Origin: a virus
Direction: 5' to 3' (one strand)
UHGV virus genome: UHGV-0164982
DNA length: 64,000 nucleotides
The notes beneath the pieces are model-generated. The model had not been told where the DNA came from. It ran no database searches and worked only from the letters and a program-made list of their open reading frames with translations. Of this stretch, positions 61,515 through 63,890 are shown in pieces. The translations under genes were made by a program, and so were the position numbers. Each line of letters starts with the position of its first letter. Position 1 is the stretch's first letter.

Positions 61515-62179
61515 CGTGTAACCTTATATTCCTGTCTCAGATTTAATATCGGATTCAACCGAATCCTCTTCTTCTAAATTTTAAAGTCGTGTAACATTAC
61601 AAAATATTCAAGGTTAAATTGAACATATATTATTGTTATTTAGATGTAAGTATATCTGAGCACTCGTTACAATACCAGAATATTACCATCATTCATCATA
61701 AAGTAACTAGCGAAGGTGTGGCGGAAACGTAAGTAAGTTGTTCTCCAGGTAATTCAATACCTGTTCTTTCTAAATAGCTGCGCGGAATAGTGATCTACTT
61801 TCGTCCGCCCTTGCAGGGCGAGACATTAGGTCGGCGTCCCCTACCTGACCGTGCTGCATCAGGCTTGAGTGTGTTGCCCATATGCAACATACCACACATC
61901 AGTAAACGGCAAGTGTAGTAGTATTAGGCGCAGAAATTTAGTACAGCCCAGAATGCGCCGTAACAATCAATAAACCACTACACCCGCGCCCTGGCTGCAA
62001 TTCGGTAACAGGGGATCCCCCCTAGCTTCCAGCGTGATTAGCGCCTTCAGCATGACGGAATATACCCGTAAATACGAGGAACTCTACCCAAAGGCTGTTA
62101 AGAACCGGCTGTTACGCTGAATGAAAAAGGACGTAACAGGTAAGGACGCTGACCAGAAGATGGCCCCTTCTCGTTCATC

Positions 62180-62420
62180 TGGTTAATCAAACCAGCGCCC
62201 TTGCCTGTTATGCCTCCTCGTTCCCTAATACACAGACGGGGACAACCCCGTGGTGTCAGGCTTCTTAGGCCGCAACCATCATCAGATCATCGTTTGCATT
62301 TACTTTAATGGTCAGTTTGTGACTGCTCCCCGCCCTGTCGGGCGAGGCTTCCCACTTCTCAGGCCACAACCGTCTGTGCGACGGATTTACGCTGGCCTCC
62401 ATGGGCGGAGACGACGAGTC
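62180..62420 (-). ncRNA. putative TnpB omega RNA scaffold (boundaries approximate)
   Basis: GC-rich hairpin-dense sequence overlapping and extending beyond the tnpB 3' end. Confidence 0.3.
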
Positions 62421-63890
62421 CCGCCGCCTGTAGTTCCAGTATTCCTTTTTGCCGGATGTTGAGTGCCGCATTGATATCGCGGTCGTGCTCTGCTCCACAT
62501 TCAGGGCATCGCCAGATGCGTTTATGAAGCGGCATTTCCGGCATTTTGTAACCACAACAATAGCAGGCTTTCGAACTGGCAAACCACTGGTCGAGTTTTA
62601 CTAGGTGAACGCCTTTTTCCGCTGCCTTGTACTCCAGCTTTGTGATGAAGCTATGCCAGCCTGCATCACCTATCGCTCTTGCCAGATTGTGGTTTTTCAT
62701 CATGTTGGCTGTTTTCAGCATCTCGACAATTACCGCTTGGTTTTCGTCAACAATTGCACGAGAGAGCTTGTGTTGAAAATCAGCACGGGCATTAGCCACC
62801 CGTTCGTGTAACGCTGCCAGACGGATTGTGGCCTTTTTACGATTCGCGCTTCCCTTTTGCTTGCGGGATAAGGCTTTTTGTTTGCGTCGCAGATTACGGC
62901 TGGCATTGATGAGATGGCGGGGATTTGCAATTTTTACCCCATCAGACTTGATGGCAAAGTGCGATAATCCCATATCTAGGCCAGTAACTGTTGATATCAA
63001 CGTGGGTTTTGCCGGAGCTTCCATGCCATCATCACAGAGAATTGAAGCATAGTATTTCCCCGTTGCTGAACAGGTGATAGTGATGCTTTTCAGCTTTCCA
63101 TGAAGTTCACGGTGAAGGCGTGCTTCTATTAGGGACAGTTTTGGGATTTTGATGGCATTATCCAGCACCTTAATCCCGACACAGTGATAGCTCGATTGTT
63201 TTCCGTGTTTACGTTTAAACGTCGGGAACCGCGCTTTCAGCTTCGGATTAAAAAAGTTGGAAAATGCCACATCAAGATTAATTACCGCCTGTTGCAACGC
63301 AATAGAATCATATTCTTTAAGCCATCCATACCTGCGGGATTTCTTTGCCACTGCAAGCAGCGGTTTCAGATCGTTACGCGGACTTAAATTTACTCCATGT
63401 CGCTGGTAAGCATGTTTTTTGATGTGAAGAGCTTTGTTGTACGCAAAGCGCACTGCACCGAACTGGGCATTGAGGTACTCTGCCTGTTCTGGTGTCGGGT
63501 AAATGCGTACTTTTGTTGCTCTTAACATAGTCACCGCTCATTGATACAGGCTTTTTATGCTAACACCGTAATGATTTTTTTAAAGCCCTGTTGGCTTTTC
63601 GCCTTATATACCCGCCCGCATTAGGCGAGGGTTTACGGCGTTTTTCGCTAAACCGCCGCAAAGTCGCTAACCATGACGAAACCCCTGAAAAAAACGCCCA
63701 CCCGAAGATGGGCAAACTGGATGGAAGCTCGTTACGCACTTCGGAGTTGCCACTTAGGCGCATGGTCAACCTGGCAACTCGGTGGTTTGTCTGGGAGGAC
63801 TAGGCCCAGCCATGCTTACCGCCGCGCCTGTCGCGGCTAACAGCTAAATCGCTCTAAAAATCACGATTCATTGATTCGATATTACACTAA
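62200..63890 (-). mobile_element. IS200/IS605-family element carrying only tnpB (boundaries approximate)
   Basis: TnpB ORF with structured ends; no TnpA ORF; hairpin plus T-run upstream of tnpB. Confidence 0.4.
62359..63534 (-). CDS. tnpB: TnpB / OrfB RNA-guided nuclease-like protein
   Basis: 391 aa; RuvC-like core and C-terminal CYCCG...CPECG zinc finger. Confidence 0.85.
   Translation of the reverse strand: MTMLRATKVRIYPTPEQAEYLNAQFGAVRFAYNKALHIKKHAYQRHGVNLSPRNDLKPLLAVAKKSRRYGWLKEYDSIALQQAVINLDVAFSNFFNPKLKARFPTFKRKHGKQSSYHCVGIKVLDNAIKIPKLSLIEARLHRELHGKLKSITITCSATGKYYASILCDDGMEAPAKPTLISTVTGLDMGLSHFAIKSDGVKIANPRHLINASRNLRRKQKALSRKQKGSANRKKATIRLAALHERVANARADFQHKLSRAIVDENQAVIVEMLKTANMMKNHNLARAIGDAGWHSFITKLEYKAAEKGVHLVKLDQWFASSKACYCCGYKMPEMPLHKRIWRCPECGAEHDRDINAALNIRQKGILELQAAGLVVSAHGGQRKSVAQTVVA

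What the first reader, a model, noticed from the sequence alone, without database searches (positions are those of the whole stretch)
61515..63890. TnpB-only IS element followed by about 850 bp of GC-rich structured non-coding DNA
The 391-aa TnpB has no TnpA partner. The sequence past its 3' end is dense in stable hairpins (for example CTGTTACG...CGTAACAG and GCCCTTGCAGGGC) and has no plausible ORF for about 850 bp. Part is probably the omega-RNA scaffold, but the rest is longer than expected and may hold another structured RNA or a second decayed element.
Basis: partly seen in the sequence, partly recalled or inferred. Interest (0 to 1): 0.45.

Follow-up and report, generated by a model that had tools for sequence, protein, structure and literature searches.

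The report
IS splits phage P1 tmRNA-like RNA
An ordinary TnpB-only insertion sequence has landed inside a conserved non-coding leader of a P1-type phage-plasmid, and that leader carries a broken copy of a widespread, apparently undescribed phage RNA that looks like the message-and-pseudoknot part of tmRNA but has no recognisable tRNA-like part.

Summary
(1) Window 62319-63647 (minus strand) is a 1329-bp IS200/IS605-family, tnpB-only element. It has canonical ends, sits 3' of a TTAG target motif, and carries a covariation-supported omega-RNA. Only 40 nt of the "non-coding tail" belong to it. (2) 61984-62318 and 63648-64000 are the phage P1 ban-operon leader, which the IS interrupts. (3) 60452-61983 is foreign DNA: a spacer like one in prophage CP4-57, an integrase fragment and a nuclease-domain gene. 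It replaces the P1 tRNA genes.

The main finding is that the IS splits an unannotated P1 RNA that resembles tmRNA. This RNA has the resume context TAAAT|GCA, a 10-codon tag (ANDDLMMVAA), its stop codon in a hairpin loop, and two H-type pseudoknots. The same module occurs in 258 phage records of unrelated families and in 660 of 5426 complete E. coli genomes. The tag shows a coding signature and the helices covary. No tRNA-like domain was found, and ARAGORN and Rfam do not call the module. The window copy is dead: it is split by the IS and has a 35-nt deletion. How the intact RNA works is unresolved.

The parts
63881..63907 (-). P1ban promoter region with the bivalent C1 repressor operator (Oban/Op72; ATTGCTCTAATAAATTT on the minus strand at 63891-63907). 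This is the start of the ban-operon leader transcript.
   Evidence: 94.9% identity to P1 NC_005856, where these features are annotated. The sequence was read.
63678..63784 (-). DicF-like region of the P1 leader. It ends in an intrinsic terminator (stem-loop 63695-63717, then a T run).
   Evidence: P1 annotation mapped through the BLAST alignment. Terminator scan. The region has separate homologues in lambdoid phages.
63648..63685 (-). 5' part of the phage tmRNA-like RNA (GGGGTTTCGTCATGGTTAGCGACTTTGCGGCGGTTTAG), cut off from the rest by the IS. Its last four bases, TTAG (63651-63648), are the TAM (target motif) of the IS.
   Evidence: Continuous with 62318 in P1. The nhmmer family profile hits 63681-63643 at profile positions 4-35. 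TTAG precedes the left end in all 25 related IS copies.
63535..63647 (-). Left end (LE) of the IS, with a subterminal imperfect hairpin CCCTCGCC..GCGGGCGGG.
   Evidence: Boundary set by the P1 empty site and by 25 related copies that start C(A/G)AAA..CGCCGTAAACCCTCGCC.
62359..63534 (-). tnpB (RNA-guided endonuclease, 391/389 aa).
   Evidence: Pfam PF12323, PF01385 and PF07282. RefSeq WP_039022915.1, 'RNA-guided endonuclease InsQ/TnpB family'.
62319..62430 (-). Omega-RNA scaffold and right end (RE) of the IS. It overlaps the tnpB 3' end and always ends ...GGGGAGCAGTCAC. A long-range pairing of 62476-62478 with 62321-62323 is possible.
   Evidence: RNAalifold on 60 distinct copies: 34 pairs, 98.2% canonical, 18 pairs with compensatory changes. 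The RE boundary is identical in all copies.
62299..62318 (-). Flank read as the omega-RNA guide (AAACTGACCATTAAAGTAAA). In P1 without the IS this sequence directly follows TTAG, so it is the homing target.
   Evidence: Empty site in P1: GGTTTAG|AAACTGACC. Use as a guide is inferred from how TnpB elements are known to work.
62265..62297 (-). tmRNA-style tag reading frame: GCA AAC GAT GAT CTG ATG ATG GTT GCG GCC TAA = ANDDLMMVAA*.
   Evidence: Rfam tmRNA_permuted, 32.1 bits, E = 6e-4, below the gathering score of 47. The same frame of 10 codons plus stop is present in 125 family members, with a coding signature.
62213..62264 (-). Remnant of the stop-codon hairpin and the two pseudoknots. A 35-nt deletion relative to P1 at 62244|62245 removes most of the first pseudoknot, and a G>A change (ACGAGG) weakens the second.
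   Evidence: BLAST against P1. Alignment A2. Helices supported by covariation.
62133..62211 (-). Long 'handle' hairpin (ATAACAGGCAAGGGCGCTGG ... GGTCAGCGTCCTTACCTGTTAC), the kind that follows the module in P1, lambdoid and T1-like phages.
   Evidence: Sequence. The same handle is seen in other phages. MFE fold.
61984..62132 (-). P1 homology stops at 61984.
   Evidence: BLAST against P1: 61984-62244 matches L002 3001-3261 at 90.6%.
61770..61942 (-). Non-coding spacer homologous to the DNA between the 3' ends of intA and yfjH in prophage CP4-57, and to a spacer in another prophage. Holds the GCCCTTGCAGGGC hairpin.
   Evidence: 75-78% identity to 583 chromosomal places.
61632..61782 (.). Decayed tyrosine-integrase fragment.
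   Evidence: RefSeq pseudogene. 82% match to integrase genes.
61515..61631 (-). AT-rich upstream region of the 311-aa gene at 60579-61514 (pPIWI-associated nuclease domains).
   Evidence: Composition. Promoter-like site 61522-61493. Pfam PF18165 and PF18166.

Best explanation
The interval is a mosaic on the minus strand of a P1-type phage-plasmid of E. coli.

(a) A 1329-bp IS200/IS605-family, tnpB-only element, related to ISEc46, has inserted 3' of a TTAG motif without target duplication. Its 3' ~112 nt, overlapping the end of tnpB, encode the omega-RNA scaffold. The adjoining flank AAACTGACCATTAAAG... serves as the guide. TnpB plus omega-RNA would therefore cut P1 copies that lack the IS at TTAG+guide, and repair from an IS-bearing copy would restore the element. 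That last step is inferred from how TnpB elements are known to work.

(b) The DNA it landed in is the untranslated leader of the P1 ban operon: C1-controlled promoter, DicF-like RNA with terminator, then a structured leader that in P1 runs on into tRNA-Asn and tRNA-Thr.

(c) The insertion point lies inside an unannotated RNA module of that leader that derives from the coding piece of a two-piece (permuted) tmRNA. The module has a 5' domain with a GGUUAGCGAC-UUUGCGG motif, the resume context UAAAU|GCA, a translated-looking 10-codon tag, its stop codon in a hairpin loop, and two H-type pseudoknots. It is conserved in many unrelated enterobacterial phages, so it is presumably functional there. 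My leading guess is that it takes part in trans-translation with a partner that supplies the tRNA-like function. This is inferred and weak.

(d) In this window the module is a pseudogene. It is split by the IS, has lost 35 nt of the first pseudoknot, and the downstream tRNA genes have been replaced by about 1.5 kb of island-derived DNA.
For: Window identity: 100% identity to E. coli P1-like plasmids such as NZ_CP037905.

IS element:
- P1 empty site and IS boundaries.
- TnpB domains.
- TTAG precedes the left end, and the right end is invariant, in 25 copies from other species.
- Omega-RNA covariation: 60 copies, 18 compensatory pairs, 98.2% canonical.

P1 leader: P1 annotation of Pban, Op72, the dicF-like region and the tRNAs.

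tmRNA-like module:
- Sub-threshold tmRNA_permuted hits in the window, P1, four phage families and a lambdoid prophage.
- 258 phage records and 660 of 5426 E. coli genomes carry it, unannotated.
- 125 family members all have 10 codons plus a stop.
- Third-position variability, and 489 synonymous codon differences in frame against 78 and 233 in the other two frames.
- Six helices, 24 pairs, 89% paired against 27-50% when the partner is slid; 18 pairs change on both sides; 0 of 500 shuffles reach the observed values.
- The family profile hits the window in two pieces that meet at profile position 35.
- The nearest canonical relatives are all permuted tmRNAs.

Decay in the window: 35-nt deletion and loss of the tRNAs.
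Against: No tRNA-like domain was found.
- ARAGORN calls no tmRNA in the window, P1, nine other loci or the whole CS01 genome.
- The Rfam tRNA and tmRNA models find nothing beyond the tag region.
- No complementary acceptor or P2 strand recurs near the module.

A role in trans-translation is therefore unproven, and the module fails a defining tmRNA feature. The Rfam scores (24-33 bits) are below the gathering score of 47. E. coli ssrA itself is not hit significantly by the family profile. No transcript data were available. TnpB activity, omega-RNA expression and a source of TnpA were not tested.
Confidence: 0.8

Rival explanations
1. The whole ~850 bp downstream of tnpB is the IS right end, an unusually long omega-RNA, or a second decayed IS.
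For: The region is non-coding and has hairpins.
Against: The IS ends at 62319 in the P1 empty-site comparison and in 25 other copies. 61984-62318 is P1 backbone that is present without any IS in hundreds of plasmids and phages. No transposase fragment lies in 61515-62318, only an integrase fragment.
Confidence: 0.02
2. The tmRNA resemblance is coincidental. The module is simply a structured mRNA leader (processing, termination or antitermination signals) upstream of phage tRNA or late genes, and the 'tag' is never translated.
For: The module always lies in operon leaders just after an intrinsic terminator: P1 Pban leader, lambdoid PR'/tR' leader, T1-like arrays. No tRNA-like domain was found. 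Rfam scores are below threshold.
Against: The frame is constant at 10 codons plus stop across 125 copies and 17 peptides, and all tags end in AA or VA except one AP variant. Synonymous-type variation is concentrated in that frame. The resume context is identical to that of genuine permuted tmRNAs on viral contigs. The layout of a stop codon in a hairpin loop followed by H-type pseudoknots is tmRNA-like. The family profile retrieves genuine tmRNAs beyond the 16-nt seed.
Confidence: 0.2
3. The module is an inert relic: a fragment of a two-piece tmRNA gene, captured once and spread among phages by recombination, with no present function.
For: It lacks the tRNA-like half. The window copy has been disrupted without apparent cost, since 14 E. 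coli genomes carry most of this IS-bearing stretch, 13 of them over its full length, at 97-100% identity.
Against: Compensatory changes occur in five of the six helices tested (pairs changing on both sides in all six), and there are coding-type substitutions, across phage families whose flanks share no similarity. Drift would not preserve these.
Confidence: 0.1
4. The intact module is a decoy or inhibitor rather than a working tmRNA. It would mimic the message-plus-pseudoknot part of host tmRNA and titrate a factor (ribosomal protein S1, RNase R, SmpB tail, or a host defence that senses tmRNA). This mirrors the tRNA-like-domain-only RNA of mycobacteriophage DS6A, which inhibits tmRNA.
For: Absence of a tRNA-like domain. 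Precedent of a partial phage tmRNA acting as an inhibitor, cited in PMC4131195 and PMC11915505.
Against: A decoy need not keep a reading frame with synonymous-type variation and a fixed stop position.
Confidence: 0.2

Closest known systems
IS200/IS605-family tnpB-only elements (IS1341 type; ISEc46 of phage RCS47 is 81.6% identical in DNA) with omega-RNA-guided TnpB
   Same: Three-domain TnpB. Subterminal hairpins rather than inverted repeats. Insertion 3' of a short motif (TTAG) without target duplication. A structured RNA spans the tnpB 3' end and stops exactly at the right end, so that the flank acts as guide.
   Different: Nothing essential. It is a new copy or variant. It lacks TnpA, as many such elements do.
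Two-piece (circularly permuted) tmRNA, coding piece (Rfam RF04321 tmRNA_permuted, RF01850 beta_tmRNA), including genuine examples on viral contigs (L009, L033, L085, L073)
   Same: Resume context UAAAU|GCAAACGA. AND/ANE start and AA/VA end of a ~10-residue tag (compare ANDERFLMAA and ANDEQFLMVA in genuine ones with ANEERFLMAA and ANDEQFLAVA here). A GGUU(N)CGAC motif upstream. Stop codon in a hairpin loop. Pseudoknots after the tag.
   Different: No acceptor piece or T arm. The 5' strand is (A/G)GUUUUC instead of GGGGNUG, so it cannot pair with a standard CAGCUCC-ACCA end. No PK1. Scores are below the Rfam gathering score and ARAGORN is negative.
Partial tmRNAs known so far: the tRNA-like-domain-only RNA of mycobacteriophage DS6A, and CDS-less organellar tmRNAs (PMC4131195, PMC11915505)
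   Same: A phage carrying only one functional half of tmRNA.
   Different: Those keep the tRNA-like half and lack the message. This family is the converse: message plus pseudoknots without the tRNA-like half.
Phage P1 ban-operon leader (Pban/Op72, 'dicF-like region', tRNA-Asn/Thr) as annotated in NC_005856
   Same: The window's 63648-64000 and 61984-62318 are this leader at 95% and 91-95% identity, with 82% over the whole 61984-62318 stretch when the 35-nt deletion gap is included.
   Different: Interrupted by the IS. Carries a 35-nt deletion. The tRNAs, plp, upl, tciABC and ban are replaced by foreign DNA. The P1 annotation has no feature over the tmRNA-like module.

Membership tests
IS200/IS605 tnpB-only element with omega-RNA | TnpB with N-terminal HTH, RuvC-type OrfB_IS605 core and zinc-ribbon TNB domain | tested here: met
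   Pfam E = 1e-19, 3e-25 and 3e-24, all above the cut-offs.
IS200/IS605 tnpB-only element with omega-RNA | Insertion 3' of a fixed short motif (TAM), no target-site duplication, defined LE and RE with subterminal hairpins | tested here: met
   P1 empty site GGTTTAG|AAACTG. TTAG precedes the LE, and the RE ends GGGGAGCAGTCAC, in 25 copies.
IS200/IS605 tnpB-only element with omega-RNA | Conserved structured RNA overlapping the tnpB 3' end and ending at the RE boundary | tested here: met
   60 copies, 34 pairs, 98.2% canonical, 18 compensatory pairs.
IS200/IS605 tnpB-only element with omega-RNA | Omega-RNA is expressed and guides DNA cleavage next to the TAM | not testable with these tools
   Needs small-RNA sequencing and a cleavage assay.
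IS200/IS605 tnpB-only element with omega-RNA | Y1 transposase TnpA in the element (autonomous members) | tested here: not met
   The 1329-bp element has no room or ORF for one besides tnpB. It is therefore non-autonomous (IS1341-like). Whether the host carries a TnpA was not examined.
tmRNA (one-piece or two-piece) | Internal tag reading frame without a start codon, beginning at a GCA resume codon and ending in AA/VA plus stop | tested here: met
   125 copies, 18 peptides among the 125 copies (17 in the deduplicated set analysed for coding signature), always 10 codons plus stop. Coding signature present.
tmRNA (one-piece or two-piece) | Stop codon inside helix 5 and pseudoknots 3' of the tag | tested here: met
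   Six helices with covariation, 0 of 500 shuffles reach the observed values. In the window copy the first pseudoknot is deleted.
tmRNA (one-piece or two-piece) | tRNA-like domain: acceptor stem with G3-U70, T arm, 3' CCA end | tested here: not met
   ARAGORN negative. Rfam tRNA and tmRNA models find nothing beyond the tag. No complementary strands recur.
tmRNA (one-piece or two-piece) | Reaches the curated Rfam gathering score of a tmRNA family | tested here: not met
   24-33 bits against 47 for RF04321, and 13-17 bits against 84 for RF01850.
tmRNA (one-piece or two-piece) | Alanylation, SmpB binding and tagging of stalled nascent chains | not testable with these tools
   Experimental.
Phage P1 ban-operon leader | Synteny dmt - Pban/C1 operator - dicF-like region - leader, with high DNA identity | tested here: met
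   C1 operator consensus read at 63891-63907.

The most novel reading that the evidence does not exclude
Enterobacterial phages of at least five unrelated groups carry a translated tmRNA 'coding piece' with no tRNA-like domain of its own. The groups are P1-like, lambdoid prophages including those of EHEC strains, Drexlerviridae, Ackermannviridae and N4-like Schitoviridae. If the tag is really used, there must be an unknown way to load a phage-specified tag template onto stalled ribosomes. That could be an unrecognisable or trans-encoded acceptor RNA, a protein mimic, or hijacking of the host tmRNA-SmpB. The effect would be to let phages re-write the fate of trans-translation products late in infection.
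Probability: 0.3. Interest if true: 0.85.

Novelty: new variant of a known kind. Interest (0 to 1): 0.62.

Why it matters
The IS itself is routine. It does give a clean natural TAM/guide pair (TTAG + AAACTGACCATTAAAG) in which TnpB would target the IS-free allele of a phage-plasmid.

The value lies in what the IS interrupted. This is a compact RNA module, conserved by covariation and apparently coding, that looks like tmRNA without its tRNA half. It sits unannotated in phage P1, in about 12% of complete E. coli genomes and in hundreds of lytic phages used in therapy collections.

Phage dependence on host trans-translation is long known from lambda-P22 hybrids and Mu (my own knowledge, not checked here). 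A phage-borne tag template would make that link directly testable. It would also add a converse case to the only partial phage tmRNA known, the tRNA-like-only RNA of DS6A. For annotation, the module is missed by ARAGORN and by Rfam thresholds, so a dedicated covariance model would be useful.

Tried and rejected
- **Rfam over the window.** At gathering thresholds it finds only C4 and isrK at 35 kb. No family covers the omega-RNA or the hairpin arrays.
- **Search for a tRNA-like domain.** I ran ARAGORN on the window, P1, many loci and the whole CS01 genome. I searched for strands complementary to GTTTTCG and TTTGCGG within about 3 kb. I inspected upstream regions and MFE folds of whole leaders. 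Nothing consistent emerged. T-arm-like motifs occur at variable distances in some lineages only.
- **P1 'dicF-like' hairpin as acceptor piece.** I considered that this hairpin followed by ACAAACC-A-CC might be a permuted acceptor piece. I rejected it because the pairing with GGGUUUU is poor and the region has its own separate homologues in lambdoid phages.
- **CACAACA motifs and AgvB.** I considered that these motifs in the handle hairpins equate the arrays with the AgvB anti-sRNAs. This is not supported: those sRNAs are encoded convergently to PR' (PMC4104026).
- **The 311-aa neighbour and YfjH.** I tested whether the neighbouring gene is a YfjH homologue. It is not.
- **A conventional small ORF for the tag.** None exists. 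There is no conserved start codon, and an in-frame UAG lies 8 codons upstream (reading of alignments).
- **Literature.** The P1 genome paper (PMC523184) is not held. Searches for phage tmRNA-like RNAs, for the tag peptides and for ban-leader terms found no description. The tmRNA census papers list only mycobacteriophage and Bacillus phage G tmRNAs.
- **Not done.** I did not build an Infernal model; an nhmmer profile served instead.
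Full report
**What the window is.** The 2.5 kb around the finding is 100% identical to ~95-kb E. coli plasmids such as NZ_CP037905. Its flanks match phage P1, P7, SJ46 and D6 at 88-95%. Rfam also finds the P1-type C4 antisense RNA at 35 kb. The window is therefore a P1-like phage-plasmid. All features discussed below are on the minus strand.

**Observation check.**
- tnpB occupies 62359-63534 (391 aa from GTG; RefSeq starts at the ATG 63528, giving 389 aa) and has the three TnpB Pfam domains.
- No other gene lies in the element.
- From 61515 to 62358 there are only short overlapping mechanical ORFs and one annotated 113-bp integrase pseudogene fragment.
- The quoted hairpins are present.
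- GC content is 49-58%, against about 30% in the neighbouring AT-rich DNA.
- Folding energy is only about 2 standard deviations better than shuffles, so hairpin density alone is weak evidence.

**The insertion sequence.** BLAST against P1 shows that P1 positions L002 3370 and 3371 are adjacent, whereas in the window they are separated by 62319-63647. In P1 the site reads ...GCGGCGGTTTAG|AAACTGACCATTAAAG.... This gives a 1329-bp insertion with no target duplication.

I fetched 80 loci encoding relatives of this TnpB (57-87% aa identity) from other species. In 25 loci where both ends could be placed:
- the left end begins C(A/G)AAA..CGCCGTAAACCCTCGCC;
- the right end always ends GGGGAGCAGTCAC;
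- the 5' flank always ends in TTAG.

TTAG is thus the target-adjacent motif. The right end lies only 40 nt beyond the tnpB stop codon.

An RNAalifold consensus over 60 distinct copies of the last 190 nt gives four helices between about 62430 and 62319. It has 34 pairs, 98.2% of cells canonical and 18 pairs with compensatory changes. This is the omega-RNA scaffold, and the tnpB stop codon sits inside it. The guide is then the flank AAACTGACCATTAAAG... (62318 downward). Because this sequence follows TTAG in IS-free P1, the ribonucleoprotein of this copy would recognise exactly the empty allele. Expression and cleavage are inferred, not shown. ISEc46 of phage RCS47 is the closest named relative (81.6% DNA identity). 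This part of the finding is ordinary.

**What the IS landed in.** In P1 the region is annotated as follows: end of dmt, promoter P1ban with the bivalent C1 operator Op72, a 'dicF-like region', then about 450 nt with no feature, then tRNA-Asn, tRNA-Thr, plp, upl, tciABC, tRNA-Ile and ban.

The window keeps these parts of the leader:
- the operator (63881-63907);
- the dicF-like region with its terminator (63678-63784);
- the first ~40 nt after the terminator (63685-63648);
- then, beyond the IS, 61984-62318.

P1 homology stops at 61984 and resumes only with a 3' remnant of trnI at 60372-60451. ARAGORN finds no tRNA in the whole window, and ban is absent.

The replacement DNA (60452-61983) consists of:
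- a spacer 75-78% identical to the DNA between the 3' ends of intA and yfjH in prophage CP4-57, and to a spacer in another prophage (61770-61942);
- an integrase fragment (61632-61782);
- a 311-aa gene with pPIWI-associated nuclease domains, which is not a YfjH homologue.

**The tmRNA-like module.** A permissive Rfam scan hit tmRNA_permuted at 62265-62368 (32 bits, E = 6e-4, below the gathering score of 47). The hit aligns UAAAU GCA AAC GAU GAU CUG AUG AUG GUU GCG GCC UAA, which encodes ANDDLMMVAA*. P1 has the same frame with one synonymous change.

Searching the P1 leader against 50,697 phage records gave 258 records. The part from just after the terminator to about 110 nt past the tag matches non-coding DNA of several unrelated groups:
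- Ackermannviridae (Ag3, PhiSH19, phiEa2809, phiMAM1);
- N4-like Schitoviridae (PBM-3, KP8);
- Drexlerviridae (CS01, C1, Akira);
- other phages.

All give sub-threshold tmRNA_permuted hits of 27-33 bits, and ARAGORN calls none of them.

A pattern scan of IMG/VR produced 125 members. Every one has exactly ten codons and a stop. Eighteen different peptides occur, including ANDDLMMVAA, ANDDVVLMAA, ANEEMYLAVA, ANDEQFLAVA and ANDNEFKVAA.

The frame shows a coding signature:
- variation is concentrated at third positions of codons 3, 4, 9 and 10;
- Leu switches between TTG and CTG;
- there are 489 synonymous codon differences in frame, against 78 and 233 in the other two frames.

Downstream, I counted six helices on a 30-sequence alignment: a hairpin that encloses the stop codon, then two H-type pseudoknots. 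The result was 89.3% of cells paired (27-50% when the partner is slid by 1-3 columns), 18 of 24 pairs changing on both sides, covariation score 0.367 against at most 0.153, and 0 of 500 shuffles reaching any measure.

The same resume context occurs in genuine permuted tmRNAs on viral contigs, with tags such as ANDERFLMAA and ANDEQFLMVA. A profile of the family retrieves such genes beyond the shared seed, and the best of them are all ARAGORN 'permuted' calls. The upstream motif GGUUAGCGAC-UUUGCGG parallels the GGUUUCGAC D-loop region of those genes. I conclude that the module descends from a two-piece tmRNA coding piece.

**Distribution and context.** The P1 version is in 660 of 5426 complete E. 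coli genomes, mostly on P1-like plasmids. It is annotated as nothing or as a hypothetical protein. Divergent chromosomal copies lie between the Q antiterminator gene and holin S of lambdoid prophages, just after PR'/tR'.

In lambdoid and T1-like phages the module sits in arrays of long hairpins with shared 'handle' sequences (CACAACAGGTAAGAGCATTG ... CAGTGCTCTTTCCGTTGTGG). P1 and the window have one such hairpin at 62133-62211. Rfam has no family for these arrays.

**What is missing.** No tRNA-like domain was found.
- ARAGORN is negative everywhere, including the complete 48-kb genome of CS01. There the module fills a 379-nt gap, and the second pseudoknot runs straight into the ribosome-binding site of the next gene.
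- Rfam tRNA and tmRNA models see only the tag region.
- No strand complementary to the putative acceptor or P2 strands recurs nearby.
- In several phages a strong promoter sits immediately upstream of the module, which leaves no room for an upstream acceptor piece.

The module therefore fails a defining feature of tmRNA, and I do not file it as a tmRNA. How a template without a tRNA-like domain could be used is open. Three readings remain: a partner RNA or protein supplies the tRNA-like function, the module is a decoy, or it is a plain structured leader. I give them roughly 0.3-0.4, 0.2 and 0.2. An inert relic is unlikely, given the compensatory changes.

**State of the window copy.** The family profile hits the window in two pieces, 63681-63643 (profile positions 4-35) and 62318-62235 (positions 35-119). 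The IS therefore cuts the RNA in the conserved UUUAG|AAAC motif. In addition, 35 nt of the first pseudoknot are deleted (62244|62245), one pair of the second pseudoknot is broken, and the downstream tRNAs are gone. This copy is a pseudogene. Fourteen sequenced E. coli genomes carry most of this stretch, 13 of them over its full length.

**Prior knowledge.** Two tmRNA censuses that included viral genomes list only mycobacteriophage and Bacillus phage G tmRNAs, plus the tRNA-like-only RNA of DS6A (PMC4131195, PMC11915505). No held paper contains any of the tag peptides. Searches for phage tmRNA-like RNAs or ban-leader RNAs found nothing relevant. The library is incomplete, and the P1 genome paper could not be read. 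Novelty is therefore probable but not certain.

**Verdict.** The IS and its omega-RNA are an ordinary new copy of a known kind. The 'excess' structured DNA is not part of it. It is a P1 leader holding a disrupted member of a widespread, apparently undescribed tmRNA-derived phage RNA family, followed by island debris. Interest rests on that family, not on this broken copy.

Noticed in passing
L319 2418-2866 (lambdoid prophage, between Q and S); L063, L129-L132, L219 and others (Drexlerviridae); window 62133-62211: Arrays of long hairpins follow an intrinsic terminator in phage operon leaders. They share 'handle' strands (CACAACAGGTAAGAGCATTG ... CAGTGCTCTTTCCGTTGTGG) and include Y-shaped units (GTGGTGAATGCGCAGGCTGATGCGC ... 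GCCGGAGATCAGCACCGGCCACCACA). Loop contents vary, and some hold T-arm-like GGTTCGAATCC. No Rfam family matches them.
   Followed up: partly
L009 9962-10325, L033 7154-7563, L085 309-788, L073 2777-3297, L099, L038, L058, L111 (IMG/VR contigs): Genuine circularly permuted (two-piece) tmRNA genes sit on viral contigs. ARAGORN calls them 'tmRNA*' and Rfam tmRNA_permuted gives 83-153 bits. One (L073) lies beside 26 tRNA genes. Their tags, such as ANDERFLMAA and ANDEQFLMVA, resemble those of the family without a tRNA-like domain.
   Followed up: partly
L050 5427-5640 and L128 (IMG/VR): This is another tag-bearing element (ANDDSFEVARLAA) that ARAGORN does not call as tmRNA. It starts only about 46 nt after a bona fide tRNA-Arg(TCT) gene. 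Its upstream motif TTCGTCAGAGTTTGAG resembles the lambdoid version of the 5' domain.
   Followed up: no
window 60579-61514 (minus): A 311-aa protein carries both 'predicted pPIWI-associating nuclease' domains (PF18165, PF18166) with no Argonaute gene seen next to it. It is part of the foreign DNA that replaced the P1 tRNA/tci/ban segment, and is possibly a defence or anti-defence cargo gene.
   Followed up: partly
window 61770-61942 (minus); E. coli K-12 between yfjH and intA (L003 3501-3677); L004 3501-3674: A ~170-nt non-coding spacer is conserved at 75-78% among 583 chromosomal prophage places. It lies between convergent gene ends, folds with z = -2.45, and has no annotation.
   Followed up: partly
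window 35080-35290 (minus): Rfam C4 antisense RNA (75 bits) and isrK (59.5 bits) lie side by side, as expected for the P1 immI region.
   Followed up: no
window 60372-60451: This is an 80-bp remnant matching the 3' part of P1 tRNA-Ile (trnI) and the DNA after it. It marks the far junction of the replacement that removed tRNA-Asn/Thr, plp, upl and tciABC. ban itself is absent from the window.
   Followed up: partly
L205 1264-1492 and 1791-2018 (N4-like phage contig): There are two group I intron matches (32 and 49.8 bits, the latter just under the gathering score of 50) a few kb upstream of the tmRNA-like module.
   Followed up: no
window 61984-62108; P1 L002 3001-3125; by eye also L007 ~1760-1800, L005 ~1850-1900, L131, L188: A second motif recurs downstream of the module in several phage families (GGA(A/G)NCCAGG...CCCTG(G/T)..A, often preceded by GACGATATCTGAGTGAC..AAAAACAGATGG). 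It was seen only by eye and not tested for covariation.
   Followed up: no
L319 2836-2853: The hairpin GCCGGAGATCAGCGCCGG of the Y-shaped array units matches the central hairpin of the E. coli sRNA rydB model (17.7 bits, E = 0.59). This is probably not meaningful.
   Followed up: no
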